Source of the DNA: an uncultured Gammaproteobacteria bacterium
GTDB taxonomy: Bacteria; Pseudomonadota; Gammaproteobacteria; CAWCPV01
Direction of reading: 5' to 3'
DNA: 64,000 nt
NCBI GenBank assembly: GCA_963797555.1
Contig: CAWCPV010000007.1
Location: 480,001 to 544,000 of the forward strand
Of the stretch, positions 3,944 to 21,837 are shown piece by piece; positions within the stretch are counted from its first letter, which is position 1; each line of letters opens with the position of its first letter. Below the pieces are notes generated by a model. The model ran no database searches, was not told where the DNA came from, and was given only the letters and a program-made list of their open reading frames with translations. The position numbers and the translations under genes were made by a program.

Positions 3944-5434
3944 TCAGAGAGCCTGCTCCAAGTGGAGCTGCCCGGGCGGCATCCCGTGGCGGGCGAGCAG
4001 AGCTTGCAGCGTGTCGAGGAAAGGCGGCGGGCCTGCAGCATACACCTCGTACTGCGCGATTTCTTCCAGCTCTGAGATGCCGGCCGCCAACGCCCCAGTC
4101 GGCTCCTGCGGCCCTTCGTCCAGGCCGAGCACACGCGGCGTGTAGTCGAAGTTGTCCAGGGCGTCGGTCCAGGCCCGGCAGCGGTTGTCCATGTAGTGGC
4201 CGCCCGGCGCGGATACCAGCCAGTACAGGTGGTAGCTCTCCGCGTTCTCGATGGAGATCGCGTTCTCGATCAGGCTCTTGATCGGCCCGAATCCCTCGTC
4301 GTAAGCAAAGAACAGGATGGGATGGGTGGTCTCTTCGTCGAGCACGAAGTTGCCATGCGGCCCGTGGGCGGTGACGGGGTGGCCTGGCTGAATGCGGCCC
4401 CCAAGAACGGCGTCGGTGAAGGGGGAGGGGGAGGAAGCGTGTCGGCGGATATGGATCTCCAGATTCCCACCATCGCAGGGGCAGCTCGCGAGCGGCAGGT
4501 CGGCGGCAGCGCCATCTTCCAGGGTGAGGGTGACGCGCTGTCCGGCCAGGAATCGCAAGCGCTGGGTCGGCGGGGTCTGTAGGCTCAGGATTGCCAGTTC
4601 GTCGCTGGGGCGCACGATTTGCCTGACCCGCGCGTAGATCGTCTGGAGCGGGATGTCCTCGCTCCGGTGTGCCTCCGCTGCCTCGATGGTGAGGTCCGTG
4701 ACTGCCGTATAGGAACACATCAGGATGTAGCCGAGGCTGTGCTCGGTCGGGCTGATCTCGTAGTCGTGATCGCGAACCTTGAGTACTTCGCCCGCGACCA
4801 CCCTCGCTTTGCACGACCCGCAACTGCCGTCCTCGCAGCCGTAGCACAGGGCCAGCCCGGCGCGCACGGCTGCATCCAGGATCGAGTCCGTCCCTTCCAC
4901 GAAGAATTCGCGGCCGCCGGGAATTACCTTCACCTGGGCGGCGAGCAGACGCAGGAAGGTGTCCCTCGCCAGGATCTGGGCTTGGCGCTTGGGAACCTTC
5001 GGGCGACGTTCCACCTCCCGTCCGAGCCATTGCGCGAGTGCCTGCACCTCGGGGCGCAGCGCGGCGTCGTCGAAGCTCTCCAGGGCGGCAAGCCGATCGC
5101 CGAGCGTCGTCACCAGGGACGAGTATGTGCCGATCTCGGACTTGGCCTCGGTAAGCTCCCGCGACAGGCGGGCCAAGCGCGTCGCGAGCACCTCCGGGGA
5201 AGGCAGCTCGGCTATCTCCTCCCTGCGTGGCATCGCGGCCGCCTTGATGCGGTTGACGCGCTCCAGCGCCGAGTCGTCCTCCAAGTGAGCCTCGGGAAAG
5301 GCGCGCAGCAGGTCGGAAACACCGACCTGGCCCTCGAAAGTCTCCAACTCGTTGTCTCGGATGCGTTTCTGTAGCTCGCCGCGGGTCACTCCCACGAGGC
5401 GCGCGGCGCGCGACAGAGTCAAGAACTCAGTCAT
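3944..5434 (-). CDS. HTH + 2Fe-2S ferredoxin + FAD/NAD reductase-like fusion protein
   Basis: N-terminal LTLSRAARLVGVTRGELQKRI helix-turn-helix; CEDGSCGSC...C ferredoxin motif; C-terminal flavin-reductase fold (GPHGNFVL, YAAGPPPF). Confidence 0.8.
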   Translation of the reverse strand: MTEFLTLSRAARLVGVTRGELQKRIRDNELETFEGQVGVSDLLRAFPEAHLEDDSALERVNRIKAAAMPRREEIAELPSPEVLATRLARLSRELTEAKSEIGTYSSLVTTLGDRLAALESFDDAALRPEVQALAQWLGREVERRPKVPKRQAQILARDTFLRLLAAQVKVIPGGREFFVEGTDSILDAAVRAGLALCYGCEDGSCGSCKARVVAGEVLKVRDHDYEISPTEHSLGYILMCSYTAVTDLTIEAAEAHRSEDIPLQTIYARVRQIVRPSDELAILSLQTPPTQRLRFLAGQRVTLTLEDGAAADLPLASCPCDGGNLEIHIRRHASSPSPFTDAVLGGRIQPGHPVTAHGPHGNFVLDEETTHPILFFAYDEGFGPIKSLIENAISIENAESYHLYWLVSAPGGHYMDNRCRAWTDALDNFDYTPRVLGLDEGPQEPTGALAAGISELEEIAQYEVYAAGPPPFLDTLQALLARHGMPPGQLHLEQAL

Positions 5435-5784
5435 GAGTCGTCCACCCGCGGGCGAATCTCCCGCCTCTCTCTTCCGACCCCAGATCGTCGTCCGAGCGGG
5501 CGAGGGGGTCAAGGGCCTGGGAGCGGCGATCGCGGCCGCGGGTCGGTCCGCCGCCGCCCGGTCCGGCACACTGCCGCGCCGATCGGGCAGTCATGGCCTG
5601 CCACCGACCTGAGGGTAGAGATCTTACAGAGAGTGGGTGCTGGGCTGCCGTGAGCTTTACGCACCTGGAGTGGCTTTGGGGTGGCGTCCCCCAGGCTTCG
5701 TCAACACGCGCGGTGGCGCCGGCGTCCCGGGTGAGCGGCGAACGCACTTTCGGGGTGGACCGTGCTCGGACCGCGGGCGGTAGA

Positions 5785-7866
5785 TTATCCCCGGAAGATG
5801 TCTACTTTTGTCTCCAGGCACTTCCGCAGACTCAAATCCTGGGCGCCGATCTCGAAACGGCTGCCGGGCTTCTGATAGAAATCCAGGCCGCGCCCGATCT
5901 TGATGCTCCAACCGTTGTCGAGGCGAATCTCGCGATCGTGCAGGTTTGGATTGAGCTGTACGTCCAACACGACGTCCAGCTCCAGCAGGCTTTGCTTGAC
6001 CTCTTCCAGCTTCTCCTGGGCATCGGCCCGTTGCTTCTTGTCGTCGTAACCGGTGACCAACTTGATGTGTTTCACGGTTCCGGCCTTGACCACGGTCTCG
6101 CAGAGACGGAGGAAGTTCTGGATCTGGTGTTGCGCCCTGATGTAGGGGTCTTCGATGGTGACCTCCGTTGCGCCTCGCAGATACGGACCGATGATCGAGT
6201 CGTAGGTGTGGCCAGTGTCCCCATATAGGATGCTGAAGTGCTGCTCCTTCAGCTCCGGCGCCATGGGTTCGGTGCCCGGAAGAGCCACGTCTACCGCCGA
6301 GAGGACTGCCGGTGTGGCAGCGCGGTCATCGAGGTTTGCGGGAACGCCGACTGGGAGCTTGCGAGGTCGCAATTCCTCTCCGATCCGTCTTCGCGTGGGA
6401 TGCAGTGTCGCTGGCGCGTGCTCGGACTCCGGACAATAGACGACGACCTCCTCGCCGCTCGCCCCGAAGTAGGATAGGCCGATCTTCGCGAACTCGTCGT
6501 CCGGCTTGCGTTTGTTCATCTGCTCCTTGACCCGCCGACGGCACTCGACCGCGTACGCCACGTACTCCTCGAATTCTTGGTCCGATGGGGCGGCAGACGG
6601 ATGCAGGATCTTCAGGAAGGCGCACACCGTCTTCTTGATGGCCTTCTCATCACGCCCCTCCACCGCCTGCCCGAGCGCGATGCGCTTGTTCACCTCCTCG
6701 TAGCGGTTGGTGTGCATGAACAGGTAGTGGAACGCCTCGGCCAGGTAGTCCGTGATGAACCCGTAGTTCCTTGTCAGAAACTCGCTGCTGTTCTTCGGCA
6801 TCTCCCACCCGGGGAGATAGCAGGCGAAGCGGTCCATGACCGCGAGATCGAACTGCGGCGGCAGCGGCTGGAACAGGTCGTATTCGGTGGAGTTGACGAC
6901 CTGCTCCACCGACAGGTCGATGTTGCCGACGAAGGCCAGGCTCGCATCGGCGATGACCTCCACTCCGCGCGAGAAGCGCCCGTTGGCCATGAAGTCCTTC
7001 ATGATCTGGACGGTGTCCGGGTCCTTCACCTTGATGCCCGCGACTTCGTCGAAGGCCACCGTGTCCCAGAACCCGACCAGCCCCACCTTGCCGCGCGCGT
7101 TGTTGTAGAACAGGGTGGCCTTGGTCGCCTGGCCGCCGCTCACCAGCGTCGAATAGGGCGAGAACTCGCTGAAGAAGTACGACTTGCCGGTGCCGCGCGG
7201 CCCCAGCTCGATGAAATTGAAGTTGGCTTCGACCAGTGGGGCGAGCCGGGCAACGAAGTGCAGCTTGACGCGGTGCGACAGCTTGCCCGGCTCGAGGCCC
7301 ACCGAGCGCAGGACGGCGTCCAGCCACTCTTCGCGCGTGAAGGCGACGCGGCCTTCGGCGTAGCGGTCGAAATCGAAGCGGGTGAGCTGAATGGGGCGCA
7401 TGTCCTCGACGTAGAAGGCGTAGTCGTCCTCCTCGATGTCGTTGTGGGCGATGGTCACCTCCGCCCAGATGCCGCCTTCCAGCAGGCGGTCGTTGTCCTG
7501 ATAGAACTTCTGCCCGACGGCGATGCGTTGGGAATTGAAATTCTCCAGCGCCGCCCAGTGCCGCTTCTCCTTCTCGACGTAGCGCACATGCACCTTGTCG
7601 ATGAAGCGGTGACGCCCCTTGGTGGCCACCCTCGACTGCGCTGCGTTCGATTCGTCCGGGCGGACGTAGTTGTCCTGCAGGGTGGCGAGGACCGCCTCCA
7701 TGCCGGCGTCGATCTCGGCCGGGTCGTTGCTGGCGCAGAACTTGGCGAGCAGGAACTCGAGCACGAAGGTGGGGACATTGGTGCCCTTCTTGATACGGTG
7801 CAGCAGGTCCTTGCGGACCACCCTCCCGTCGAACACCTCGTTCAGTTTCCTGTCCAGCGCGTCCAT
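5785..7866 (-). CDS. brxL: BREX BrxL-type AAA ATPase with C-terminal MIT_C/PLD-like domain
   Basis: [21 protein letters not shown] Walker A, VAFDEVAG Walker B, [13 protein letters not shown]; C-terminus IEDPYIR...[19 protein letters not shown]. Confidence 0.9.
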   Translation of the reverse strand: [693 protein letters not shown]

Positions 7867-7889
7867 AGTCTCCCTATACCTACATGTCA

Positions 7890-8023
7890 TTACACACAAA
7901 TCGACACCTCGCCGTCATTCCGGCATGGATTGCCGGAATCCAGCGACCAGGGACGGTCACCCCAATCACATCCCTGTGTTCTAGATTCCGCCATTCCCTG
8001 GCGGAATGACGAGATGTGTGTAA
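7890..8023. repeat. Palindromic REP-like element (GTCATTCC...GGAATGAC type)
   Basis: CGTCATTCCGGC..GCCGGAATCCAG ... CTAGATTCCGCC..GGCGGAATGACG, enclosed by TTACACACA/TGTGTGTAA; lies between pglZ and brxL. Confidence 0.75.
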
Positions 8024-8032
8024 GGAGATGCC

Positions 8033-10561
8033 CTACACCGTATAGTCGGTCTCCAGACTCAGGCTGCTGTAGGCCGTAAGAGTGGTGGGATTCAGCGCCT
8101 TGACGGTAAACTTGCCCTCGAAGTCCGCATCCATGCGCAGCGCGATTTGCTTGCGCGCCCCCGCGGCCAGGGTGATCGTCCGTGTCGCCGGGTTCACGTC
8201 CCCGCCGGGCCGCGGCTCGCCCACCACGTTGCCCTTAGGGTCCTGCGCTTCCAGCAGCACCTCGACGGCATCGCCTGCGCCCGCAAACAGGCTGTCGCTG
8301 TGCAGCTCGACCTCGATCACGGGCAGTCGGGTCGTGATACGCTTCGCGCCGCTCTTGTAGGAAAGCACCACAGTGTAGCGCCGCGCGTCCGGCTGTACCG
8401 GGGCCTCGAAGCGCACCCGCAGCACCGGTACCACGGCCTCGGGCAGGGAGATCCCGCCGTGGAAGTAGAGATAGCCCGCTCGATAGGGCGCCATGCTGCG
8501 GGGACCCGCCACTTGCGCGAAGGCACCGCGAATCCCGAGCTTCTCCGCGGAGACCACGAAGTTGTGCCCATCCGCGACCCCATCGCCCAGCATCAACCGA
8601 TCGTGCGCGGCGACCGGCCACCGCCCCCGGGGCTTGGTGCACACGTCGCCGGCTTCCGCCTGGGCGTTCAGGAAAAACCCGTGGTCGGTCCCGATGACGG
8701 CCTCCCGGAATCCCAGGCCCCGCAGCTTGTGCAGGGCGACTCGGATCAGCTTGAGCGTGCCTGGAACGAGGCTCAGCGTGCTTTCCGGATTGCTCTCGAG
8801 CTGACTGTCGATCTCGGTGCTGCGCAACACCAGCAGATCCACGGTGTCGGGCAGCTTGGCCTTGCCCCGCACGAAATCGCTCAGCGCCATCTCCGCGAAC
8901 CGGTCGCCGTAGCGCTTGCGCAGCACGCCCATGCGCTGGGAGACGTTATTGACGGGAATCCCGGCGAGCTTCAGCACCAGCGAGTCGCCCTCGCTCTCCA
9001 GGGAAAGGTCCGCGTGCGCCCCTGGGAGCAGACTGGCCATGCCGACCGGGGTCACCGTCGGCAGTTGGGCGCAGGCCGCCCGGAGCTCGACCGGACCGTC
9101 CTCGGCGACGAGCTTCTCCAGCGCCACGCCCAGCTCGTAGCGCAGCGCGTCCACCATCAAGTAGGCCAGCCGGTGGCCGCGCTGCTTCAGCCGCTCGCCG
9201 ACGAAGCGATCGAACACGTCCGCGTTGGCGAGACGCCCCGTCGGCGGCCAGCCGTCCGTCTCCAGGTGGCTCACGAAGGCGGCCTGGACCTTCTCCGCAA
9301 GGCGGCGGTAACGGCTGCGCGCCACCTGGATGACCTCGCCCATGAAACCCTGGGCGTCCAGGAAATCGCCGACCGCCTGCTCGAATTCACGCTGCAATCG
9401 GTCCGCCTCGCGCAGGCTTCCGATATAGAAATCCAGCAGGCTTTCCTGGCGCCGCCCGTGGTCCGGCAACTGGCGTTCGAAATCCTCGCAGGCCTCCATG
9501 AGATGCAGGGCTGCCCGGATCAGCGCCCATTGCACCTGGCTCTCGCCCTTGCCAATCCACACCGACCGAGCGTGGCGGCCGAGCAGGGCGCGGGTTCGAT
9601 CGGCATTGTCCCGCAGCAATGCGTCCATGGCCTGCCGCAGGAAGGTGCGCTCCTCGAAGGGGAAGGTGTCCTTCTGACCCAGGTCTTCAATCTCGGAGCA
9701 CACCTCGGGCAGGTTCATCTCGGCCTCGATAGCCTCCGCCCTCTCGACATAGCTCGCCCGCGTGCGCAGGTCGCTGCGCAGCCGCTCGCACAGGTCCTCG
9801 ACCAGCGGCCGCGCCTCCTCCGGTGCGCGCGGGACGCCCGCCAAGGCATCAGGTAGCACGCCGGGCAAGTCGAAGACGAATTCGCTGAACAGCAGGAAAC
9901 GCCAAAACTCGTCGGCCAATGGTCCCCAGCTCTTGGCGCGGGTCTTCAGTTCCATCTCCAGCGTCGCGCGCAGGAGATCGCGTGCCTCCTGCGACCAGCC
10001 GTCCGCGGCCTTTAGCGTCTTCGCTTGCTCCGGATTCGGCACCAGCAGCGCTGCGAGGATATCGCCTGCCGATTCGACCTTCAGCGTCGCACGCAACTGG
10101 GGCCAGCCCATGCCGCCGCCAATCGCATCCATCACCGCAAAGGCCGGGGAAGGGTTCTCCGCGAACACGCGGCGAACCTCGGTGGCGAAATCCGGCTTGG
10201 CCCGCAGACAAACGCTCAAAAACTCGTCCCCGTCATCCTCCGGGAACACCGCGCCGCACTCGGCGTAGAGCGCAAAGGGATCGGCCTGTTTCTGCTGCTC
10301 GCTGAGAGGCTTTCCGGCCGGCACGTAGATTAGCAGCCCCTCCACCGACGCTTTGGCCGCGCCCAGCGCGCGCAGTCCCCGCAGCGCCGCCTCCCGGCTC
10401 TCGATGCTGCTCTCCGAGGCATCGACCACATAGATGGCGTCGGAAGCCAGACCCAGACACAGCTCCCGATAGCGCCGTTCGGGGTCGTACACCACCATGC
10501 ACTGGGCCTTCTTCAGGCGGGGGAGCAGCACCTGCTCGCGGATGAACGCTGTTAATCTCAT
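8033..10561 (-). CDS. pglZ: BREX PglZ alkaline-phosphatase-domain protein
   Basis: YLMVDALRYELG, LPTVTPVGMASLLP, GTDHGF and YFHGGISLPE motifs; BREX context. Confidence 0.92.
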   Translation of the reverse strand: MRLTAFIREQVLLPRLKKAQCMVVYDPERRYRELCLGLASDAIYVVDASESSIESREAALRGLRALGAAKASVEGLLIYVPAGKPLSEQQKQADPFALYAECGAVFPEDDGDEFLSVCLRAKPDFATEVRRVFAENPSPAFAVMDAIGGGMGWPQLRATLKVESAGDILAALLVPNPEQAKTLKAADGWSQEARDLLRATLEMELKTRAKSWGPLADEFWRFLLFSEFVFDLPGVLPDALAGVPRAPEEARPLVEDLCERLRSDLRTRASYVERAEAIEAEMNLPEVCSEIEDLGQKDTFPFEERTFLRQAMDALLRDNADRTRALLGRHARSVWIGKGESQVQWALIRAALHLMEACEDFERQLPDHGRRQESLLDFYIGSLREADRLQREFEQAVGDFLDAQGFMGEVIQVARSRYRRLAEKVQAAFVSHLETDGWPPTGRLANADVFDRFVGERLKQRGHRLAYLMVDALRYELGVALEKLVAEDGPVELRAACAQLPTVTPVGMASLLPGAHADLSLESEGDSLVLKLAGIPVNNVSQRMGVLRKRYGDRFAEMALSDFVRGKAKLPDTVDLLVLRSTEIDSQLESNPESTLSLVPGTLKLIRVALHKLRGLGFREAVIGTDHGFFLNAQAEAGDVCTKPRGRWPVAAHDRLMLGDGVADGHNFVVSAEKLGIRGAFAQVAGPRSMAPYRAGYLYFHGGISLPEAVVPVLRVRFEAPVQPDARRYTVVLSYKSGAKRITTRLPVIEVELHSDSLFAGAGDAVEVLLEAQDPKGNVVGEPRPGGDVNPATRTITLAAGARKQIALRMDADFEGKFTVKALNPTTLTAYSSLSLETDYTV

Positions 10562-10588: not shown

Positions 10589-11009
10589 TCACGGAGCCGC
10601 CTCGTCCCAAACGACCCGCACGTACCCGCTATCCGCGAGCGATGAGTCTTTGGTGAGCAACGGCACTCCCCATGCCCACGCCTCAGCCGCCACGAGCCGA
10701 TCGAAGATATCCGGAATCGCTGTGAGCTTCGTGCTCTCGATGACACGGGCGGCGGTTAGCGGAAGGAGCCGGTAGTTATCGCTGTCCTGCAACTGATCCA
10801 GCACTGGTATCAACCGGGTCAGGGTAAAACCCCGTAGGCGCTGCTTTTCCGCGACCATGCAGGCCTCGGCCACCACCACGGCCGGCACCAGCAAAGACTG
10901 CTTCCCCGCGCTCCACCTCCGCCAGCGCATGCGCCGCCCCGCGCCCGATGCGATCGGGTGCCATCAGATGCCATATCAGGACGTGGGTATCCGTAACGTA
11001 CCGATTCAC
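10589..11009 (-). CDS. PIN-domain (VapC) toxin, one frameshift near 10900
   Basis: YVTDTHVLIW...VVVAE...DIFDRLVAAEA...PLLTKD, split across two frames. Confidence 0.8.
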
Positions 11010-11299
11010 CGCTTCGATTCTCCCGCGAGCTCGTCGATCAGCCTGTCGTGCCGGGCGTTGCGCTCCGCGCGCGACTCGTCCAGGGCCGATCGCACCGGGT
11101 CACCCTCGGGCATAGGCCCCCGTGTCAGCACTCCGCGTATGCTAGCAATCTGCTGGACGGGCGATTCAGACCCGAGAGGAGTCTCCGCTTCCGAGGATAA
11201 GACAATCACCTCCACCTCACCGACGGGAACCTCCGGGGGCAACTGAAGGGACAGGCGGTGATCCGCCTGGACGGTCGCTCGGTATCGGTAGGCTTGCAT
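11006..11299 (-). CDS. putative antitoxin paired with the PIN toxin
   Basis: Small ORF (LQLPPEVPVGEVEVIVL) whose stop overlaps the toxin start. Confidence 0.65.
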   Translation of the reverse strand: MQAYRYRATVQADHRLSLQLPPEVPVGEVEVIVLSSEAETPLGSESPVQQIASIRGVLTRGPMPEGDPVRSALDESRAERNARHDRLIDELAGESKR

Positions 11300-11388
11300 G
11301 GATGTTCTCCTCCTCATTCAAGCACCACCAACGAATGCTGATGGAGCCACGTTTATCGACGCCGGACAGGTTGATCGGAACCGAGCCT

Positions 11389-11595: not shown

Positions 11596-11627
11596 GCTGG
11601 CCTCACGGGTTCAAGAAATTAGCACCC

Positions 11628-11660
11628 GTAGGTTGGGCAAAAGCGCAGCGTTGCCCAACA
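11628..11660 (+). repeat. GTAG-type REP hairpin
   Basis: GTAG GTTGGGCAA AAGCGCAGCG TTGCCCAAC. Confidence 0.7.
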
Positions 11661-11754
11661 CGAACGCCGATCGGTCCATCTAGCCGGCGATACATCCGGA
11701 CTGTCGTATGAATTCCGCGTCCCAAGGACCGGTCAACTCGACCCGTTCGCCGTC

Positions 11755-12159
11755 TCAGGACGACCCGGATGCATGGACCAGCCGGACGTTGTCCGTATAG
11801 CGTGCCAAAAGACTGTCGTCGGTCAACAGGAGCATGGGCTCCACACGGCTTTGCGCGACCAACAGCCGGTCGAACGGGTCCTTATGGATCGGCGGCAGCC
11901 GCGATACCAGCGCTGCGTGTTGCGCGGTGACGGGCAGCTCGGCAAAGCCGGTTTCCGGCATCACGGCCAGGATCTCGGCCGGATCGGCCTGGAAATCCTG
12001 CCGGCCCAACGCGCTCTTGATGGCAATCTCCCAGATATTGGCAGCGCTGAAGTAGATCTCGTTGTCGCCGTCCTCAAGCATGCGGCGCACCGCCTTGGGT
12101 ACCCGGTGGCTCGCACCCACGGCCCAGAGCAGCACGTGCGTATCGAGCAGGATGCGCAT
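11755..12159 (-). CDS. vapC: VapC PIN-domain toxin
   Basis: ILLDTHVLLW, SAANIWEIAIK, HKDPFDRLLVAQ. Confidence 0.92.
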   Translation of the reverse strand: MRILLDTHVLLWAVGASHRVPKAVRRMLEDGDNEIYFSAANIWEIAIKSALGRQDFQADPAEILAVMPETGFAELPVTAQHAALVSRLPPIHKDPFDRLLVAQSRVEPMLLLTDDSLLARYTDNVRLVHASGSS

Positions 12160-12401
12160 CAACGCTCGCCTTCGAACTGAGCCAGGATCTCATCGGGCAG
12201 GGGTGCGTTGAAGTCATCGGGAATGCGCAGCTTGCCGTCCAGCAGCCCCAGCTTGCGGAGCCGCCGTGGCGATGCCAGCGGCACGAGCCGGGCAACCGGT
12301 TTGCCGGCCTTGGCGATGACGAACTCCTCACCCGCCTGGGCCTGTTCGACCAGCCGGGAAAGGTGCGTCTTGGCTTCGTGGATGTTTATCTGTTGTGCCA
12401 T
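12159..12401 (-). CDS. Phd/YefM-family antitoxin
   Basis: INIHEAKTHLSRLVE...GEEFVIAKAGKPVARLVP; ACTAAG direct repeats upstream at about 12420-12438. Confidence 0.92.
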   Translation of the reverse strand: MAQQINIHEAKTHLSRLVEQAQAGEEFVIAKAGKPVARLVPLASPRRLRKLGLLDGKLRIPDDFNAPLPDEILAQFEGER

Positions 12402-12490
12402 GGCTGGCATCTCTGGATGGACTAAGGTGAACTAAGCTTATCATGTTGAAGGGCCTGCGCGGCCCGCGGCGATCATGCACCCTAGTCGCC

Positions 12491-15400
12491 CTAGTCGTCC
12501 CCGCCATCTTCCGCGACGGGCTTGCGCCCCCGTTTTTTCTTCGCGCTCTGCGGGGGCGCCTGGTAGAGGTCTTCGAGGTCGTGGGCGATGGCCAGTGACT
12601 TGTCGGTCTTGCATTTCTCGCGCACGCGGTCGGGCCAGAGGGTATAGGCCAGGTGCGCCCAATCGTAGTCGCCGCGATCCAGCTTCTCCCAGGTCTCCTT
12701 CAGCGTCTTCTGCCACTTGGGCAGGCGGAACAGCTTCCAGAGGGGCGCCGCCGTGATCTGGACGCCGTCGTTCAGGTTCGGCTTCCAGCGGGGCGCCCAG
12801 GCGAGCAGCTCGTCGCGGAAGGCCTGCAGCTCAATCTCGAAGTCCTGCAGCCCTTCCAGCTCCTTTTCATCGGCACGGGTGCGGGCGCTGCCTTTGGCCT
12901 GTAGCCGGCCTACCGCCTCGCTGACTTGACGGAGCTTCGGCTCCACGAAGTGCACGACGCAGGCATAGAGCGTTTGATCGGTGAGGCGGTGGTAGTAGAT
13001 CCAGAGCGTGTAACGGCCGGAGGCGGTGGAGAGCGGCCAGTAGATGGGGGCCTGGCGGCGGCTCTTGGAGTAGCGCTTCAGGTGGTCGGCGAAGAAACTG
13101 GCAGGCTTGCGGAAGTAGTCGCGCAAGGTGCGCACGCCCAGGATGTCGCACGCCTCGCGCTCGATGGCCTCCCAGCGGTCCTTCCAGATGATTTGCAGCA
13201 CCTGGTGGACACGGGCCTCAATGTCCAGCGGATGGCCCGGGTCATCCACCAGGATGCCGTCCCACGGGATCTCGATCGGATAGTTCCAGCGGCCTTCCTG
13301 CTTCAGCCTTGCCACGTCCTCCTTGGTGACGGGTAGCCCTTGCTCGTTCTGGAGCTGGCCGGGCGGACAAACCGGCAACGGCGCAAACGGGTCGGGCAAC
13401 TCCGGCGCCGGTTTCTCGCCCGTGGCGAAACGGATGTCCCAGCGGCCAAAGGCGGTGCCGAGGGCATAGGATGGCGCAAATTCGAAAGCGGGTCGTCCCG
13501 ACGCTGCCAGCGACCGATGAAATCTTGATTCACTCGCAAGCTTCTCAAGATCGCAATTGAACCTCAAAGCCAACGATTCGAACTCGGCGTGTATGACGTG
13601 AGAGCGTTTCATGAGCTGCCGACTTACGCCTTCGACGGGTGCCTCCTTTTCATCTCCGTCCAAAGTCGGGAGATTGGGACTGCCCCAAAAGCCCTCCGGT
13701 ATCTGCCCGCCGCCGCAGTGGTATGGGTGCCGCGCAAAATCTGCCTCAAGTAATCCGTCATCAGCCTCGGAAAACCCGAAAATATGTCTCCATATTTTGT
13801 CAACCATCCAATCCGACCGAAGGACCTCTAGCGCGTCTGCAAGAAACGACTTGGCGTTAGATATCGCGAAATCTTTGAGAGACTGACGTGTCGCTCCGAA
13901 TCGAAGACCCTGAAAGGTTGGAGACAGCTCGTCGACAGCCAACTGATGAGTTTGAACACACCGAAACCGCCGATCGATACTCTGTTTGATGTGTTCGGAC
14001 TGAGCGGAGTTCAGGCGGTCGAGAAGGCATGGAAGTCTCTTCATGATCCCCGTCGTATAATTCCGGGCGGCACTACCTCGAACGGCAGAATCTCCGGACC
14101 CGACGCAGAATTCAACTAAGGCCCCGACCGGACGACTATTGAGATACGAAAGTAGCGGCACAAGGTGTTGGCCGGCGAGAGGAATAATGCCAGGGCCTCC
14201 CGGACTGAAGACGCTTCCCGCAGGTAATGCTCGAAACGAAAGAAAGCTAGTCGTTCGCTGGGTATAAGTAATCCCCGGAACTCCGTAAATCTCGGAATCG
14301 GTCGTCCTTCGAGCAACAGGTAGCAACTTGAAGTCAACTACCAACTCGTAGTTCCCAGCGGTAGGTTGATAGTCGCCGCCTTTTGCATAGCGCCGCCATC
14401 GGCCGTCCAACTCGTTAGGTGGAACTTCGACGTGGAGGCGCAAGAATCGATCGTCTTCACCTGTCTCAAGCCCCTTCGAAACTTTCGCAAAAGCCTCGAC
14501 CGGCCGTTCCGCGAAAAGGTCAATCCAATGCTTTGGCGCCCAATAAGCAATGCGGTGGCTGGGAATCTGGCCCCAGCAATTTGGCACGGCAAAGACATCG
14601 CGTTTAGGCGTGGACTGGACAATCGCAGCAGCCAAAGCAGTCGCTTTATCGCTCGCCGAAAGCAGGCGAAAGAATGTTCCGAGTCGTCCTTCACGAGAGA
14701 TAACGAAAGCGGCAGGTTCAACCACCGCATCCAAAACCCCGTATCCCAAATCAGCGACGAGAGCGAAGTTGCAAGACGACAGGATCGCTTCCCGCCACTC
14801 GTCGAGCTGATCGAGGAACATCAGAAGGCGTGTCGCAAGCACACCGATACGGCCGCCGACTGATAGCTGCTGAATGCTGCGCGTTAAGAATAGCGACGCA
14901 ATTTCGCGACTAGATCCTGCAGGTGCCGGAATCTCCTGTTGGTAAATGGCTCTAGTCGCTTCGCCAAACGGCGGATTCATGAGGACCACGTCATATCGTT
15001 TGCGGCACAGGTCGATGAAGGCAAAGCCACGGGCGGCATCATCGGCAAACAGGCGGCGCTGGTAGCCGTCGCCGTGCTCCGCCCGTCCAGCGTAGGTCTG
15101 GAGGGCGGCGTAGATGCGTTCCTCGGCCTTTTCCCAGAAGGTTTCGTCGGTGATGCCGGTTACATCCAACCCGAGTTGCTGTTGCACGGGCGGAGCGGTG
15201 TCGTCGGCGAAGAGACGGCCTTGTTCGCGCTTAGGGCCGACGAGCCATTTCTGCTTCGCCTCGGCCACGGCGCCGGCGATTTCCTCCTCGATCTTGAGCA
15301 AGGAGCCGGCTTCGCCCGCGAGCTTCATGGCCTCGAATACCCGCCGGACGAGTTGCCCGAGAAGCTTTCGCTCGGGCGTGGCGGAGAGGTGCGCCGTGAC

Positions 15401-16757
15401 GAACTCCTCCAAGAACGCTTCCTCGCCGGGCATGGGCTCGGCGCAGACGATGTTCGAACGGCGGATGCGGAAGCGCTCGCCGGGCTTGAGGCCCTGCTGC
15501 TGCCAGGTGCGCTGGGCGCGCAGCCAGAGAGACAGCCCGGCGATCTGCACCGCGCGGGGGTCGATGTCGATGCCGTGGATGTTGCGCTCGATGATGAGGC
15601 GGGGAACATCCCGCAGCAGCTCGCCCTTGTCTGCGTACGTCTCCCGTAGCGGCTTCAAGCCTTCGCCCCGCGCATCTCCTCCCGTGGGCGAAGGGAGCAC
15701 ATTGAGATCCCATGCCTCCTCGTAGATGCACTCGAACAGGTCGAAGGCATAGAGCCCGAAGTGCATGGACCCACAGGCGGGGTCCAGCATCTTGATCTCG
15801 CGCGGATCCTTCAATGCCCGGAAGGGGATATATACCGGCTGCTGCAGCAGTTCCTCCTGGCTGAGGTTGCCCTGATCGCTCGGCGGCTCGGGCGCCACTT
15901 CTCCGGGCGCCAGGAAGACTTCGCGCGGGCGACGCACCAGATAGCCGCAGCGTTCCTTCAGCGCCGTCCTGCCCTGGGCCATCTCGTACCAGATGCGGCC
16001 CAGGGTGTTGTCGGTGAGGAACTCCACCACGTAGCGCGGCGTGAAGAACTGGTTGCGCACGGCCAGCTCGCGGCTGTTGCGCGGCGCGGCCGATTCGTCG
16101 CGCATCTTTTTCCGCTCTTCCTTGGAGTTGAAGTACTGGTAGATCCAGCCGATGGTCTCGTCCTCCGCCCACAGCGGTGCGATGTCGGGGGCGTTGATGA
16201 GCTGGAGCGCCTCCAGCAGGGCTGGCTCGCGCGGGAAGAGCCGCCCTTGGGGCGAGTAGCGGTCGAACAGCACCTTGAGGTCGAGCGCCAGTTCGTCGAA
16301 GACGCTGAAGAGGTAGCAGCGGTAGGCATCGCCCATCTCCCCGAGGCCGCTGCCCGCCAGCCTGGCGTACAACTGAAAGCCCTTGGAGTTGTGGCCGCTC
16401 GCCACCGACTCGATCAGCAGGCCGCGCGCCTCGGCCATGCGCAGGCGCAGCGAGGCGGTTGAGCACGGTGAAGGCCTGCTCGCGCACGATGCGCTCCAGC
16501 CCGCTGCTGCGGTTGCCGCCCGTGGCGGCTGGTCGGCGCAGGTAGTGCGCCAGCGTCTCGCGCAGGATGCGGGCCGTTTCGCGCCGGGCATCATCGAGGT
16601 GGCGCAGGCTTGTCCAGGTCGCGCCACCTGCGCCGGAGATGCGGGTCCAGGCCGTACTCGTTCTGCAGTTGGCGGGTGAACTCCTCGGTCAGCAGCGCGC
16701 GCGCGCCTCGCTGACGAAGCGCTGCAGGCGGTTGCGGGTGGGTTGATCGAAGGCCAT
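12491..16757 (-). CDS. pglX: BREX PglX adenine DNA methyltransferase (N-terminus frameshifted)
   Basis: MAFDQPTRNRLQ start at 16757; QFFTPRYVV, LDPACGSMHF, NPPF; C-terminal YSKSRRQAPIYW and YDWAHLA. Confidence 0.9.
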
Positions 16758-19700
16758 TAGCCATCGTCCTCGATGACTGAAGCGTCACCTCGACGTCTCG
16801 AGTAGATGGGCCAGATCTCGCTTTGAGCTCTTGCAGCTGCCGAATCAGGTCTTCGAATCTGCGTCGGGTCGCTGATCGCTGACAGTGGACGTCGCACGGT
16901 AAGCTTCGTACGTCGCGCACGGAATCGCCGATCCTTCGCGCGCCCGCTCCTCCATCCGCCGGCGCGCGCGCTCCTGGCCCTGACGGCCGATCGACGTCTT
17001 GAGATCGCTGACCGTCGGAGATGATCTCGTAGTCGCGGTTGAGCAGCTGCTTGAGGCCGGCGAGGTCCTGCGTCGGCCTCCATCGCCAGCGCTGTCCAGA
17101 CGCGGCCAACGCGTTCGCGCTGCTCTTCCTGGGTGAGTCTCTGCCATTCGGGCAGGCGCTGCAGGTCCTCTGGCGCCTCCTTGAGGCGCAGCTTCTGCTG
17201 CTCGGTCGAGCTGCGGTGACCGCGTTGCTGACCCGGCGCCTTGATGTGCGGTGAGCGGGGTGCTGAGGTCGGCGGCGTGGCTGGAAGAAGTCGTCCTTGC
17301 CGAGGCGCTCGGCGAGCTGCTGCAAGCTCTCGGCGAGGTCGCGGCGCAGCTCCCCGGGGATGCCGGTCGCGGGCAGCGCACTCGATGTCGCGGCGGTGGC
17401 GCCTGCAGATCCCGCGATGGTGGTCTCCAGGCCGTTGCTTGAGCGCTCGGTTCGACCTCGCCGGCCCACTTCAGGCTCTGGTACAGCGCCGACTCCTCGC
17501 CGCCCAGGCGCTGCGGGGCATCGGAGGCGTCGGTGAACAGCACGTCGGCGATGTCCTGGTTCAGTGTGCGGATGCGTTCCGCCGCCGGCCAGCCTGTAGC
17601 GCCGAGAGCTTTTCCGCGAGCGGGGCGTACTGCGTGCTGGAAACGCGGGAAGCGCTTGGCGGCGGCCTTGCTGATCTCCTCCTCCAGCGGGATCACCGTG
17701 TCGCCGATCAGCTCGGTGAGGCGTTCGGCGGCGCGCGCCAAGGTCTCGATGGAGGGCCGCTCGTCGCGCAAGCGCTACGCCCGCGGCTGGCAAAGCTTCT
17801 GTTGGTCTTCAGCGCATCGATCGCCTGCTGGCCGGTTGACCGTGACCTCGCGGCCCGAGACCTTGAGCTTGATCTCGCCCGCCACCAGCATCGCGGCGAG
17901 GAGGTAGCGGATGCGTGTCCGGCGACCAGCCGAACGGCGCGCTCGGTGAAGTGGTCGAGCAGGCGCTTGCCTTCGACGGTGCCGTTGCGCTCGATGTAGT
18001 CGCGGATGCTGACGAGGGCCTTGTGGTCGGTCTTGATGCGCGGCCGTGCCGCCGGCTGATCTGCACCAGCCCCAGCGGATCCAGGGCGCTGGTGATGGCC
18101 GCGGGATTGCCCGACGCGCAGGAACTTCTCGGCCAAGGCCGTCTCCGCCCGCACGGGCGCCTCGGCGTAGCGGTCGAAGACCTGCTCGGCGACATCCGCG
18201 AGATGCTTTCTTGCAAGGCCTCGAGCACGTCTGGTCGAGGGCTCTCGACGGCGGTGGTCTGGCCGCGGAAGAGGAACGAGCCCTGCGCGCAGCTGCCTGC
18301 TTGAGCAGTTGCTGCAAGTTCGCCGCGAGCTTGGCGGCCCGCTCGCGTCTGGCTGGCGCAGTACTCCTTGACCTCCTGGTCGGGATCGTTGCGGTGCAGC
18401 TCGGCGATGCGCTGGCAGCGGTAGATCTCGGCCGACCAGATCGTCGGCTTCGGCGGCTGCGCGGCCGAGCAGGTAGATCACGTTTTGCCGTGCGCTCGCT
18501 GGCGCGACTCGTCGAGCAGCCGGGTGCGCTGGCGGTCTCGTAGTCGGTCGGATTGGCGAACTCGACGACGGTCTGGATCGTGCTCGCGCTCGCCGGCGAG
18601 GCTGGTGATGAGTGCTGCCCGACTGCGCCTTGAGCCCCGTGGTGACGGCCAGCGTGCCGTGCAGGCGTGGCGGGCGGCAGCGGGTCGAAAGCGTCGCGGA
18701 GCGCCTCGTTGAGGATGCGCCGCGTCTCGACGGTGCGCAGCGGTATCTGCGCCGCGCTCCTGCTCGATGTCGTTCAGCTTCTCGCTGAAGAAGCAGCAGG
18801 TTGCCGTCCTTCTCGCCGAGCGGCACCAGCGGATCGTTCAGCATCTCCTCGACGCGCCTTGCGCACCTCGTCCAGGCGCGAGGGCGCGGTCGACGGCGGG
18901 TGCATGAGGCTGGCGAGATTCTGCACCGTGACCGGCATATTGCCGAGGATCTGCAGCACGGCGACGGTCTTCGCCACCTCCTGGTGCAGGGCGGAGTCGT
19001 GGAAAGCGAATGCAGGACCTTGCCGACCGCCTGATGGATCGACGGAAAGGCGCGGCGGATGTCCTTCTCCAGCGCGTCGTACAGGGTCACCGTGGTGGCC
19101 AGCCAGCCCGACCGGCTGATCCGCGACCGGCGTGCGGCCGTCGCTGCCCTCGACCAGAATGTCCTGGATCACCTTGATGGCGGAGCGCAGGCCGATGCCG
19201 CCGGTGGATTTGGCCAGGGCACCCAGCAGGTGGAGCAGGATATCGAAGTGCGCCGGCAGGAAAGGGTAGAGGTTGATGAAGGTCTCGCGGTTGAAATCCG
19301 CGTCGTAGTAGCTTGGCGTCGTGCAGCTTGGTGTTGTGCCGCAGGGCCTGCCCGAGCTGCATCGAACAGCTCGCCCGAGCGTCTGCTCGCCGGCTGGCGA
19401 CTTGCCAAGCAGCCGGCGGTAGCAGATCTCCTTGATGTCGCTCGACTCCAGGTCGACCTGGATGGGGAAGCGGTCCTTGAGCTTGAAGAGCTCCGGCGAA
19501 TTGAAGGCCGCGCGCGGGTCGTCCTCGGTCAGCGTCTGCTGCGCGGTGCCGATGATCCAGACCTTGCCGTCGCCCATGCTGCTTGAGGTTCTTGGCCAGG
19601 CCGTCGAGGTTGAGGATCGAGGTCTGGCGCGCGAGCCGACGTACTGGCCCACCTCGTCGATGATGAAGAGGATATACTGCTTGCCCGATGCTTCGCGGAC

Positions 19701-20460
19701 GATGTCGATCATCTCCTGCACGCGCTCGTTCTCGAACCGGACGAAATCGCTGGTGCCGGTGGAGAACGACGTGGGCGTCTGTGAACAGCGCCGGGTACAT
19801 CTCGTGGGCGATCTCCGGCAGCAGACTGTCGACCACCAGCGGATCGTTCTGAACGTCGCTCCAGGTCAGCCCGGCTCGTGCCTGCGATCAGCGCGCGTGA
19901 AACTCGTCATAGCGGCCGTCCTTCTCCAGCCGCCGCTCCAGCGCCGCCACCTTCAGGTTGCGCGAATAGCCGGCCCACTGCAGCACCTTGTAATAGAGGA
20001 CCGTGGAGACATCCTCCATGCGTCGCCCCGGCGAGCATCTCGCTGGCGAGGTCCAGCATGACGACGGCGGCCGGGTAGCGCGTGCGCCACCGTGGTCGAG
20101 CAAGGCCTTGGTCTGGGGCTGTGTGCAGGCGGTCCTGCAGGTGCTTAAGGAAGGGCACGCCGTCGACCGTGCACGCGCTCGTCCAAGGCGAAGCCGAGAT
20201 ACTTGGTGAACGAGCTTTTGCCCGGATCCGTAGAAGCCGGAGACCCAGACGCCGATCTCGTTCTCGCCGCCCGGCTCCATGGCCAGCTTGCATCTTGTCC
20301 AGCAGCTTGCTCGAACTGCTCCTCGATGCTGTCGGTGACGATGTACTCGCGTGATCTCGGCCTTGAGGCGCTCTTCCTGCGAGGCACTGTAGGTGATCAC
20401 CTTCTCGATGGTGCGGTCGATGCCCTTGCTCGGGTCGAACAGCGTGCGGATCTGGTTCAT
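16757..20460 (-). CDS. brxC: BREX BrxC P-loop ATPase (many frameshifts, probably sequence error)
   Basis: DRTIEKVITY, VWVSGFYGSGKS, FIIDEVGQY, KLKDRFP and YPFLPAHF in successive frames; TAA overlaps the pglX ATG. Confidence 0.85.
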
Positions 20461-20488: not shown

Positions 20489-21064
20489 TCAGCCGCCCAC
20501 ATGGACGGAGCGGTAATTGCCGTCTCGGGATAGAAGCCGAGGAACTTCAACCGCGTCTTGCCGGCTCCGGATGCCCGGATAAAGAAAGACGGTCGGCACG
20601 TGGAACTTGCCCTGAAGCTGCCCCTCGATGGAACCGATCCGCAGGTAAGGGTGGAGCGCCTCCAGGTCGGTGACCAGCAGCAAAGCGTTACTGGCCCCTT
20701 CGAGGGAGGTCAGAGAAGCTTCCAGGCGGCGCTGCAGCGCGCCGTTGCTGTCAGCGCATTCGCCAGGGACTGGTTGGTCTTGGTCCAATTCTGCGGCTCC
20801 CGGCGGTCGGCGGTGAGCCACAGCGCACGGCGCGGATCGTTTTGCAGGACGGCCTCGATGTGCTTCGGCTATCGAGAACGTGGTCACCTCCCAGCCCTCG
20901 TTGCGCAGCCGTGCAATCCAGGCCGGCGTCTGGCGCTTGACCTCGAGGATCTGCGAGGGGTGGAACACCAGGTAGTAGATAGGCTCGAAGCTGGCGTGGC
21001 CGAGTTCCCGGCCATGGCGGATGCGCTCCCGCAGCTCGTCGAAGTCAGCCTTGAGCGAGGACAT
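20489..21064 (-). CDS. brxB: BREX BrxB (DUF1788)
   Basis: PIYYLVFHP, DLEALHPYLR, PTVFLYPG, DGNYRS; position between brxA and brxC. Confidence 0.8.
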   Translation of the reverse strand: MSSLKADFDELRERIRHGRELGHASFEPIYYLVFHPSQILEVKRQTPAWIARLRNEGWEVTTFSIAEAHRGRPAKRSAPCAVAHRRPPGAAELDQDQPVPGECADSNGALQRRLEASLTSLEGASNALLLVTDLEALHPYLRIGSIEGQLQGKFHVPTVFLYPGIRSRQDAVEVPRLLSRDGNYRSVHVGG

Positions 21065-21837
21065 CGCAGAGCGCCTTCATGTCTCGATGTTTCCAGCTTA
21101 TTCGGACCACGTCGCCCGCCGCCTGGACGATGAACAGTCCCGTCAGCGACAGGCGTTTCAGCTCATCCAGCGCATCGTCGCGGCCGAGCCCCGAACAGTC
21201 CCCAATCTTGGTGACTCATTACCGAGTTGTCGCCCAGGCCCGAGAAGTGCAGGTCGTGCGCCAGGTAGGCCGCGACCCTGGGCGACATACGGAAGGCGGC
21301 GATACGCCGGGCCGTCTTTTGCCCGTTTTCGAGCAGGCCGTAATCGGCGCAGCAGCCGGTCAGATAACCGGCCACATTCTGGATCGTCCTGTCGGACCAG
21401 CGTGTTGCAGTCTTGCCGTCGTCGACGGCGCGCTCCACGAACGCTCGCGCATGGTCGTTCGATATCTCGCCGGCGCCTGCCGCGTACCGCTCCCAGTAGA
21501 CCTGCCGGATGAAGTCCCCGAGGATCGGATTCGCCCGGCTGGTGAAAAGCATGAAGAGCTGATTGATCTCCGGCGGCGCAAGGCGAACCACCAGGCGCTT
21601 CAGGTGTCCGGCGGGTGCACCGTCTCTGACAAGGTAGCGGGGAGCGAAGCATTCAGTGACGATGTTCCGCAGCCTTCGGTCGGCAATGTTCGGGAATCGA
21701 CCGGACTCAAGCGCCGCTTGATGGATCTGCGGTGCTCTCATTCCGGGCTCCCATAGCTCCAACAGTGCCTTGGTTTCATCGACGAGTCCGAGGCCGGCCC
21801 CAAGCCTGATAGTATATGGCGCCCTCTTGGTTACCAT
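21045..21837 (-). CDS. brxA: BREX BrxA (DUF1819-like), frameshift near 21175
   Basis: LGAGLGLVDET, RRLRNIVTECFAPRY, LTGCCADYGLL; position upstream of brxB. Confidence 0.78.

What the first reader, a model, noticed from the sequence alone, without database searches (positions are those of the whole stretch)
5785..6250. BrxL ends in a MITD1-like PLD-fold domain instead of the Lon protease
Seen: after the AAA domain and a Pro/Ala-rich linker come [24 protein letters not shown] and [30 protein letters not shown]...[12 protein letters not shown], with no Lon protease motifs. From memory, these blocks closely match the C-terminal PLD-like (MIT_C) domain of human MITD1 ([36 protein letters not shown]), an ESCRT-III-binding protein. 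Inference: this BREX subtype uses a PLD-fold effector (nuclease or lipid-binding), pointing to a link between bacterial defence and a eukaryotic protein. The fusion may already be catalogued in domain databases.
Basis: partly seen in the sequence, partly recalled or inferred. Interest (0 to 1): 0.75.

Follow-up and report, generated by a model that had tools for sequence, protein, structure and literature searches.

The report
BrxL with MITD1-like PLD tail
The last gene of this bacterial anti-phage BREX operon does end in a phospholipase-D-fold domain about half identical to one in human MITD1, but this is a common BrxL variant already described in print whose proposed DNA-cutting activity has never been tested.

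Summary
The BrxL gene (5785-7866, minus strand, 693 aa) has BrxL_N, the BrxL AAA+ ATPase, a variable Pro-enriched linker and a complete Pfam MIT_C domain (E 3e-52). That domain matches human MITD1 at E 5e-39 and in fold (TM 0.95, Z 25). No Lon-like C-terminal domain is present.

It is not new. PADLOC has a full-length model of this architecture. NAR 2025 (PMC12065111) noted MIT_C on many BrxL proteins. NAR 2026 (PMC12839542) counted it in 1030 of 2913 BrxL-bearing type-1 BREX taxa and described the H-R-D motif. This scan has already reported the same thing in at least 14 other genomes. In my own sample, 6 of 20 BrxL genes carry MIT_C.

The most likely function is a PLD-type nuclease tethered to the DNA-loading BrxL ring. 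This is inferred from the fold, the invariant H-D-R and Asp residues, and nearest structural neighbours that are mostly PLD nucleases; it is untested. Rival readings are a ring-dimerising module and a membrane-binding module.

New for this locus: brxC carries an in-frame stop and several frameshifts and pglX one frameshift, so this BREX copy is probably defunct.

The parts
5785..7866 (-). brxL, 693 aa plus stop (the ORF is open back to TTG at 7899; the probable start is ATG at 7866)
   Evidence: PADLOC BrxL model PDLC02508 covers ORF residues 12-703 as model positions 1-694 of 698, E 7.6e-288. NCBIfam TIGR02688 scores 477 bits against a cut-off of 329. The database copy P0004 has 693 aa.
7447..7839 (-). 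BrxL N-terminal domain (ORF residues 21-151)
   Evidence: Pfam BrxL_N, E 7e-44.
6484..7416 (-). BrxL AAA+ ATPase domain (ORF residues 162-472), with GPRGTGKS and FDEV motifs present
   Evidence: Pfam BrxL_ATPase, E 8e-121. Aligns to solved BrxL 8emc at E 4e-123. Motifs read from the translation.
6214..6483 (-). Variable Pro-enriched linker (ORF residues 473-562)
   Evidence: No Pfam hit on 6238-6480. Pro is 11% against 4% overall; mean identity to 26 homologues is 45% against 76-82% in the domains.
5791..6213 (-). MIT_C (MITD1-type PLD-fold) domain, ORF residues 563-703
   Evidence: Pfam PF16565, E 3e-52, profile 1-142 of 142. MITD1 4a5z/2ymb at E 5e-39. AF2 model pLDDT 97.3, TM 0.95 and rmsd 1.1-1.2 to 2ymb/4a5z, Z 25.
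5917..5940 (-). HDREIRLD, an H-x-R-x4-D variant of the PLD HKD motif (His643, Arg645, Asp650 of the 693-aa protein)
   Evidence: Conservation in 105 MIT_C domains: His 104 of 105, Asp644 101 of 105, Arg 105 of 105.
6148..6150 (-). Asp573 of the IEDPY block (693-aa numbering), a conserved acidic residue
   Evidence: Asp in 95 of 105 domains and Glu in 9 more. NAR 2025 names this acidic residue as part of the putative site.
8033..10561 (-). pglZ, intact, 842 aa
   Evidence: PADLOC PglZ PDLC02561 covers 1-842 as 1-840 of 840.
10589..11009 (-). Second PIN (VapC-like) gene, split over two frames (10776-11009 and 10589-10930)
   Evidence: Pfam PIN on 10589-10930, profile 21-115 of 120. The N-terminal piece is read. 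No Pfam hit on the N-terminal piece alone.
11755..12410 (-). Phd/YefM antitoxin (12159-12410) plus PIN toxin (11755-12162), inserted between pglX and pglZ
   Evidence: Pfam PhdYeFM_antitox, E 2e-11. Pfam PIN, E 5e-12.
12491..16757 (-). pglX methyltransferase with one frameshift near 16445 (codon ~100)
   Evidence: NCBIfam BREX_1_MTaseX, 596 bits against a cut-off of 500. tblastn with a relative's PglX: residues 1-99 in one frame (16757-16446), 100-1289 in another. Local sequence.
16760..20460 (-). brxC, broken: in-frame stop at 19888-19890 and at least three frameshifts (near 19720, near 18860, between 17440 and 17790), probably a fourth near 16800
   Evidence: PADLOC BrxC PDLC02483 positions 4-188, 207-293, 245-530, 528-883 and 993-1196 lie on five ORFs in three frames. 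Stop map. Gene end.
20489..21064 (-). brxB
   Evidence: PADLOC BrxB PDLC02465, E 3e-77, full length.
21163..21837 (-). brxA
   Evidence: Pfam BrxA, E 9e-23. PADLOC BrxA, E 7e-96.

Best explanation
This is the MIT_C (also called 'HKD/HRD-endoDNase') variant of BrxL, the last core gene of a type-1 BREX anti-phage operon. The N-terminal domain and the MCM-like AAA+ ATPase are those of the solved BrxL, which assembles as rings on double-stranded DNA. The usual catalytically dead Lon-like C-terminal domain is replaced, after a ~90-residue flexible linker, by a single PLD-fold domain of the MITD1 type. Most likely this domain is a PLD-type phosphodiesterase acting on DNA. Its His (HDR motif) would be the nucleophile, and Arg would take the place of the canonical Lys. 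As in other one-domain PLD nucleases, two copies would have to pair to make one active site, so cutting would depend on BrxL assembling on DNA. Shown here: the domain identity, the fold, residue conservation and the operon context. Inferred: catalysis, the substrate, pairing of two domains, and gating by assembly. In this particular genome the operon is probably no longer a working BREX system, because brxC and pglX are broken.
For: Identity and fold: Pfam MIT_C E 3e-52. MITD1 at E 5e-39. AF2 model pLDDT 97.3, TM 0.95 to 2ymb/4a5z, Z 25.

PLD superfamily: the next structural neighbours are SauUSI Z 9.0, NgoAVII R-protein 8.7, NucT 8.0, phosphatidylserine synthase 7.9, Nuc 7.8, Tdp1 7.8, BfiI 7.4 and Zucchini 7.2. 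Foldseek adds PLD2, PLD3 and F13 at E 2e-5 to 1e-3.

Active-site-like conservation in 105 MIT_C domains: His 104 of 105, Arg 105 of 105, Asp644 101 of 105, Gly660 105 of 105, plus Asp573, Gln581, Thr605, Arg659, Asp662, Arg681 and Cys683 at 90% or more. The pattern is the same in BrxL-type (15), other prokaryotic (57) and MIT-type (23) rows.

Print: NAR 2025 proposes that BrxL and MITD1 are enzymes (passages). NAR 2026 calls the domain an HKD-endoDNase with an HRD motif, present in 1030 of 2913 BrxL-bearing taxa (passages).

Precedent: a 2026 preprint reports that Druantia DruE carries two PLD-like domains 'closely resembling' MITD1 with a His-x-Arg pair. D1740A was the inactivating nuclease-domain mutant in its ssDNA cleavage assays, and Ala changes of D1740, D1917 and R1918 abolish defence (passages).

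Context: solved BrxL is an ATP-dependent DNA-binding ring (passages). In other prokaryotic proteins MIT_C is fused to S1, IF2_N and Schlafen/AlbA_2 modules.
Against: No enzymatic activity has been shown for any MIT_C domain. The only activity I know of for MITD1's domain is membrane binding, taken from the title of Hadders et al. 2012 seen in reference lists; the paper itself was not held.

The canonical Lys is Arg, the Gly-Ser-x-Asn that usually follows HKD (recalled) reads G-R-G-L-D here, and the motif's final Asp is only 62% conserved.

Structural Z scores of 7-9 lie in the range the tool warns can reflect a common arrangement, and rows within 1 Z unit are ties.

I could not confirm the DruE link by sequence. 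The C-terminal ~450 residues of 2 DruE3-like proteins gave no Pfam hit at E<=1 and hhalign probability below 1% against the MIT_C alignment. Those proteins may differ from the preprint's DruE.

Fusions to dynamin-like GTPases and to MIT/ESCRT-III in eukaryotes would suit a membrane role. The canonical BrxL C-terminal domain is non-catalytic and serves ring-ring dimerisation, so a purely structural replacement is possible.
Confidence: 0.6

Rival explanations
1. MIT_C is a non-catalytic assembly module. It replaces the Lon-like C-terminal domain as the element that pairs subunits or joins two BrxL rings tail to tail and tunes the ATPase, and it cuts nothing.
For: In solved BrxL the Lon-like domain has no protease motif, lies far from the DNA, mediates tail-to-tail dimerisation of the rings, and a mutation in it (Q661W) changes ATPase and DNA affinity (passages). 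MITD1 is said to dimerise (passage). About two thirds of BrxL proteins work with a dead C-terminal domain.
Against: A dimerisation surface does not explain near-invariant His, Asp, Arg, Gln and Thr across bacteria and eukaryotes in very different architectures. Type-4 BrxL has no C-terminal domain at all, so the position is not structurally indispensable.
Confidence: 0.15
2. MIT_C is a phospholipid- or membrane-binding module, as reported for MITD1. It would station BrxL at the inner membrane where phage DNA enters, or act on a lipid phosphodiester.
For: Membrane binding is the only reported property of the MITD1 domain (title of Hadders et al. 2012 in the reference lists; summary passage). 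MIT_C is fused to membrane-remodelling machines: the ESCRT-III-binding MIT domain in eukaryote-type proteins (27 of 76 scanned) and Dynamin_N GTPases in P0321 and P0322. Phosphatidylserine synthase and phospholipases D are among the structural neighbours.
Against: BREX and BrxL act on DNA. Other prokaryotic fusions are to nucleic-acid-binding modules (S1, IF2_N, AlbA_2). Five of the seven structural neighbours ranked next after MITD1 act on DNA; a phosphatidylserine synthase and a polyphosphate kinase lie among them.
Confidence: 0.12
3. This reading is about the locus and does not exclude the others. This BREX copy is a decaying relic, and brxL-MIT_C is intact only because decay is recent, so it does nothing in this organism.
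For: brxC has an in-frame stop and at least 3 frameshifts. pglX has a +1 insertion near codon 100, and a neighbouring PIN gene is split. The assembly is not generally indel-ridden: it has 96 open frames of 1000 aa or more. A second BREX locus on contig C3 has brxL in three frames and pglX in pieces.
Against: The genome is an incomplete assembly (84.6% complete, 20 contigs), and rpoB and rpoC models find nothing in it, so local assembly or consensus errors cannot be ruled out. No sequencing run was listed to check the reads. brxL and pglZ (4.6 kb together) have no lesion.
Confidence: 0.5

Closest known systems
BrxL 'HKD-endoDNase' / MIT_C variant of type-1 BREX (Li et al., NAR 2025, PMC12065111; 'Expanding the landscape of BREX diversity', NAR 2026, PMC12839542; PADLOC model PDLC02508)
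   Same: Same architecture end to end: the PADLOC model covers ORF residues 12-703. It has the same H-R-D motif and sits in the same operon position. The closest database relatives, from Alcanivorax, Xanthomonas, Aeromonas, Pseudomonas and others, are ~697 aa and 79-81% identical in the MIT_C domain.
   Different: Nothing in the protein differs. The operon around it is damaged here (brxC and pglX), and two PIN toxin-antitoxin modules sit between pglX and pglZ.
Canonical BrxL with Lon-like C-terminal domain (Acinetobacter BrxL, PDB 8emc/8emh; TIGR02653)
   Same: N-terminal domain and AAA+ ATPase align over residues 14-478 at E 4e-123. Both are the last gene of a BREX-1 operon.
   Different: The C-terminal ~200 residues are unrelated. 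The TIGR02653 match stops at model position 482 of 675 and falls below its cut-off.
Human MITD1 C-terminal domain (PDB 2ymb, 4a5z; Pfam MIT_C)
   Same: 48-49% identity, TM 0.95, rmsd 1.1-1.2 A, Z 25. It shares the same near-invariant residues.
   Different: MITD1 has an N-terminal MIT domain that binds ESCRT-III, and BrxL has none. MITD1 works in cytokinesis (passages), not on phage DNA.
One-domain or helicase-linked PLD nucleases of restriction systems (SauUSI, NgoAVII R-protein, BfiI, Nuc, NucT)
   Same: PLD fold (Z 7.4-9.0, 115-124 residues aligned). A His-x-basic-x4-Asp motif. A nuclease joined to an NTP-driven DNA motor, as in SauUSI.
   Different: Sequence identity is 9-12%. Arg replaces Lys. 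No Pfam PLD nuclease family is detected, even at E<=10.
Druantia DruE C-terminal PLD-like domains (bioRxiv 10.64898/2026.05.13.724313)
   Same: The authors say the domains closely resemble MITD1. They contain a His-x-Arg pair and essential Asp residues, and the nuclease is coupled to a DNA motor in an anti-phage system.
   Different: DruE has two tandem domains in one chain. No sequence similarity to MIT_C was detectable in the 2 DruE3-like proteins I tested.

Membership tests
Pfam MIT_C (PF16565) | HMM score above the gathering cut-off over the whole domain | tested here: met
   176.7 bits against 25, profile 1-142 of 142; 181 bits on the genome scan.
Pfam MIT_C (PF16565) | Fold of the MITD1 C-terminal domain | tested here: met
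   AF2 model pLDDT 97.3. TM 0.95 and rmsd 1.1-1.2 to 2ymb/4a5z. Z 25.2 and 25.0.
BrxL of type-1 BREX | BrxL_N plus BrxL AAA+ ATPase domains | tested here: met
   Pfam E 7e-44 and 8e-121. TIGR02688 scores 477 bits against a cut-off of 329.
BrxL of type-1 BREX | Last gene of an operon with brxA, brxB, brxC, pglX and pglZ | tested here: met
   All five were found upstream on the same strand; brxC and pglX are damaged.
Lon-type BrxL (TIGR02653) | Lon-like C-terminal domain; score above the model's cut-off | tested here: not met
   551 bits against a cut-off of 628, and only model positions 3-482 of 675 align. 8emc aligns only to residues 14-478.
PLD-superfamily HKD nucleases | PLD fold | tested here: met
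   Neighbours after MITD1 are PLD enzymes and nucleases, Z 7.2-9.0 and Foldseek E 2e-5 to 1e-3.
PLD-superfamily HKD nucleases | H-x-K-x4-D catalytic motif (definition recalled; also stated) | tested here: inconclusive
   HDREIRLD has His and Asp in register but Arg in place of Lys. Arg is invariant in 105 of 105 domains.
PLD-superfamily HKD nucleases | Two domains pair to form one active site | not testable with these tools
PLD-superfamily HKD nucleases | Phosphodiesterase or nuclease activity | not testable with these tools
   No experiment on any BrxL MIT_C was found in the searches.
MITD1 (eukaryotic ESCRT-III-binding protein) | N-terminal MIT domain | tested here: not met
   No PF04212 hit in the BrxL protein, whereas 27 of the 76 scanned representatives have MIT plus MIT_C.

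The most novel reading that the evidence does not exclude
The six MIT_C domains of a BrxL hexamer are inactive alone. They become composite H-x-R PLD nuclease sites only when they pair, within a ring or across two tail-to-tail rings loaded on DNA, so that phage DNA cutting is gated by ATP-dependent assembly. Because the same residues are invariant in eukaryotic MITD1, MITD1 would then also be an unrecognised phosphodiesterase at the midbody, inherited from a prokaryotic module.
Probability: 0.25. Interest if true: 0.6.

Novelty: already known. Interest (0 to 1): 0.15.

Why it matters
How BREX stops phage is still unsettled. A BrxL variant with a built-in nuclease would give roughly a third of type-1 systems a direct DNA-cutting arm. 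It would also suggest an enzymatic role for human MITD1. Both ideas are already in print (NAR 2025, NAR 2026) and need bench work rather than further sequence analysis. This window adds one more example, and a damaged one at that.

Tried and rejected
1. Complex prediction for a MIT_C homodimer was not available and nothing was folded.

2. The full-length AF2 model of BrxL from 27 close homologues was poor (mean pLDDT 53, the ATPase core below 50). Nothing is concluded from it, including about the linker.

3. The DruE link could not be shown by sequence. Two DruE3-like proteins were taken from the class sample. Their C-terminal regions have no Pfam hit at E<=1, and hhalign against the MIT_C alignment gives probability 0.4% and 0.1%. 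The link rests on the preprint's structural statement alone.

4. A lenient Pfam scan of the domain (E<=10) found no other PLD family, only chance-level hits.

5. The tree of 105 MIT_C domains is poorly resolved (150 columns; 12 of 101 inner branches starred). All 23 MIT-type rows and 10 unlabelled rows lie on one side of the midpoint root, but that branch has support 31, so neither the direction of transfer nor a single eukaryotic origin is shown.

6. The look-up of sequencing runs listed no run for the brxC region, so the frameshifts could not be checked in reads.

7. rpoB and rpoC models found nothing in the genome, so they could not serve as an indel control. Long open frames were counted instead.

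8. The search for related loci with the dynamin-MIT_C protein P0322 found no relative.

9. PADLOC on 24 non-BrxL or fragmentary MIT_C proteins gave only tail hits to the BrxL model, apart from P0315, which is a full BrxL.

10. Plasmid neighbourhoods of three MIT_C hits gave no clear functional clue.

11. Hadders et al. 2012 was not held.

12. A search with 'MIT_C' and 'BREX' returned only unrelated Brexit and brexpiprazole papers.

13. The plus-strand ORF 5593-6228 overlapping the domain has no Pfam hit and is taken as spurious.
Full report
**Observation**

The minus-strand ORF 5785-7899 encodes a protein with three Pfam domains: BrxL_N (ORF residues 21-151), BrxL_ATPase (162-472) and MIT_C (563-703). 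MIT_C scores E 3e-52, 176.7 bits against a cut-off of 25, and the whole 142-position profile is matched. The quoted peptide blocks are present.

Against the sequences of all solved structures, residues 14-478 match Acinetobacter BrxL (8emc, E 4e-123). Residues 559-703 match human MITD1 (4a5z at E 5e-39, 2ymb at E 2e-38), with about half of the aligned positions identical. The Lon-type BrxL model TIGR02653 aligns only to its positions 3-482 of 675 and stays below its cut-off. The shorter model TIGR02688 passes.

The linker between ATPase and MIT_C is Pro-enriched and much more variable than the domains. The real start is probably the ATG at 7866, giving 693 aa.

**Surroundings**

The gene closes a type-1 BREX operon on the minus strand:
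- brxA, 21163-21837
- brxB, 20489-21064
- brxC, about 16760-20460
- pglX, 12491-16757
- pglZ, 8033-10561
- brxL, 5785-7866

These assignments rest. Between pglX and pglZ sit a Phd/YefM antitoxin with a PIN toxin, a RelB-like antitoxin, and a second PIN gene.

**Already known**

- PADLOC has a BrxL model (PDLC02508, 698 positions) that this protein matches end to end, MIT_C included (E 7.6e-288).
- RefSeq annotators use the name 'MIT C-terminal domain-containing protein'.
[quoted passage not shown] - The NAR 2026 BREX survey (PMC12839542, passages read) found the Lon-like domain replaced by an 'HKD-endoDNase' in 1030 of 2913 BrxL-bearing type-1 taxa. It describes the Lys-to-Arg 'HRD' motif and proposes direct degradation of invading DNA. 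Its supplements were not read.
- This scan has reported the same thing in at least 14 other genomes. Those notes gave me the 2026 paper as a lead, which I then checked myself.

**Distribution, my own counts**

- With the 150-residue domain as query, 3711 clusters (90% identity) of 264-2000 residues match at E<=1e-3. Nearly all of the 120 listed are BrxL_N+ATPase+MIT_C proteins of about 697 aa, 77-81% identical in the domain, from Pseudomonas, Xanthomonas, Aeromonas, Alcanivorax, Paraburkholderia and others.
- The full-library search found 1268 representative clusters (50% identity) at E<=1e-3.
- In 400 other genomes sampled from the same class, 17 carry BrxL_ATPase (20 genes). Five of these genomes (6 genes) have MIT_C in the same frame. 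Two of the 17 (G039, G140; 3 genes, none with MIT_C) are unpublished genomes. Without them the count is 5 of 15 genomes and 6 of 17 genes. This agrees with the published one third.
- 24 of 72,556 plasmid records hold a match, mostly annotated brxL. None of 50,697 phage records does.

**Structure and residues**

The domain folds with very high confidence (pLDDT 97.3, 64-sequence alignment). It superposes on MITD1 at TM 0.95, rmsd 1.1-1.2 A and Z 25.

The next neighbours in a search of 48,161 representative chains are all PLD-superfamily proteins. They are led by nucleases of restriction systems: SauUSI 9.0, NgoAVII R-protein 8.7, NucT 8.0, Nuc 7.8, BfiI 7.4 and Zucchini 7.2, with phosphatidylserine synthase 7.9 and Tdp1 7.8 among them. 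These Z values are modest, and rows within one unit are ties.

In an alignment of 105 full MIT_C domains the polar residues that stay fixed look like an active site. In 693-aa numbering:
- His643 in 104 of 105, Asp644 in 101, Arg645 in 105, and Gly660 in 105
- Asp573, Gln581, Thr605, Arg659, Asp662, Arg681 and Cys683 at 90% or more

The pattern is the same in BrxL-type, other prokaryotic and MIT-type rows. HDREIRLD fits H-x-K-x4-D with Arg for Lys, but the last Asp is only 62% conserved.

**Mechanism**

Solved BrxL is an ATP-dependent ring that encloses double-stranded DNA. Its Lon-like domain is catalytically dead, lies away from the DNA, and joins two rings tail to tail (passages).

The best-supported reading of the MIT_C variant is a PLD-type nuclease tethered to that DNA motor. 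Because it is a one-domain PLD, it probably needs two copies to pair.

A 2026 preprint gives the first experimental precedent for such a domain. Druantia DruE has two PLD-like domains that the authors say closely resemble MITD1. Their pocket includes His1999-x-Arg2001 and Asp1740. The nuclease-domain mutant D1740A was used as the inactivating control in the ssDNA cleavage assays, and Ala changes of D1740, D1917 and R1918 abolish defence (passages). I could not confirm that relationship by sequence in two DruE3-like proteins.

Two rivals remain:
- A purely structural ring-pairing module, supported by the role of the canonical domain.
- A membrane- or lipid-binding module, supported by the reported property of MITD1 and by fusions to dynamin-like GTPases and to MIT.

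Other prokaryotic fusions (two S1 domains, IF2_N, FHA, DUF2196, Listeria-Bacteroides repeats, and BrxL with an extra Schlafen/AlbA_2 domain) lean towards nucleic acids. No experiment on a BrxL MIT_C domain turned up in the searches.

**Eukaryote link**

The shared element is the domain only, because BrxL has no MIT domain. In a quick maximum-likelihood tree, all 23 MIT+MIT_C rows fall on one side of the midpoint root, together with 10 unlabelled short rows. The dividing branch has support 31 and the tree is unrooted. The data neither show nor exclude transfer from a bacterial defence gene.

**State of this locus**

- brxC is spread over five ORFs in three frames. It has an in-frame stop at 19888-19890 and frameshifts near 19720, near 18860 and between 17440 and 17790, with probably another near its end.
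- pglX changes frame near 16445, where one extra C is apparent.
- The second PIN gene is split by what looks like one extra T.
- The assembly as a whole has 96 open frames of 1000 aa or more, so these lesions are locally concentrated rather than a general indel problem.
- However, the genome is an incomplete assembly (84.6%) and no reads could be consulted.
- The same genome has three further BrxL loci. Two are intact without MIT_C. One on contig C3 is itself broken, next to a fragmented pglX.

**Verdict**

The feature is a common, catalogued and published BrxL variant, seen many times in this scan, and its biochemical activity is the only open question. Interest is low.

Noticed in passing
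window 16760-20460 and about 16445: brxC carries an in-frame stop and at least three frameshifts. pglX has a one-base insertion near codon 100. brxL and pglZ are intact, so the BREX copy looks defunct, unless these are local assembly errors.
   Followed up: partly
window 10589-12410: Toxin-antitoxin genes are inserted between pglX and pglZ: a Phd/YefM antitoxin with a PIN toxin (intact), a RelB-like antitoxin (11389-11595), and a second PIN gene split over two frames.
   Followed up: partly
G000 contigs C3:513337-528681, C4:682300-683757, C16:110109-111599: The same genome holds three more BrxL loci, none with MIT_C. The one on C3 has brxL in three frames and pglX in pieces beside an open brxC.
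   Followed up: partly
L084 3964-9864 (G000:C4, about 600960-606860): A 1966-aa DruE3-like helicase (PADLOC E 8e-163) is present, so the genome probably also carries a Druantia-type system.
   Followed up: no
proteins P0249, P0314, P0321, P0322, P0328, P0339, P0344, P0304, P0315: Outside BrxL, prokaryotic MIT_C is fused to FHA, two S1 domains, Dynamin_N GTPases, IF2_N, DUF2196 and Listeria-Bacteroides repeats, and one BrxL has an added Schlafen/AlbA_2 domain. Many further proteins of 400-590 aa have N-terminal parts with no Pfam family.
   Followed up: partly
PADLOC model PDLC02508: In 23 of 24 MIT_C proteins tested, this BrxL model matched only through its MIT_C tail (model positions ~480-698), at E 1e-28 to 1e-46. 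Partial hits to it could be miscalled as BrxL.
   Followed up: no
L087 (Hymenobacter sp. BRD67 plasmid) 4409-6450: A plasmid BrxL-MIT_C gene is annotated as five separate short CDS, beside a short PglZ-domain CDS. This is another fragmented BREX copy.
   Followed up: no
G000, whole genome: The rpoB and rpoC family models find nothing in this 5.35-Mb, 20-contig assembly (84.6% complete), so a region with core genes is missing from it.
   Followed up: no
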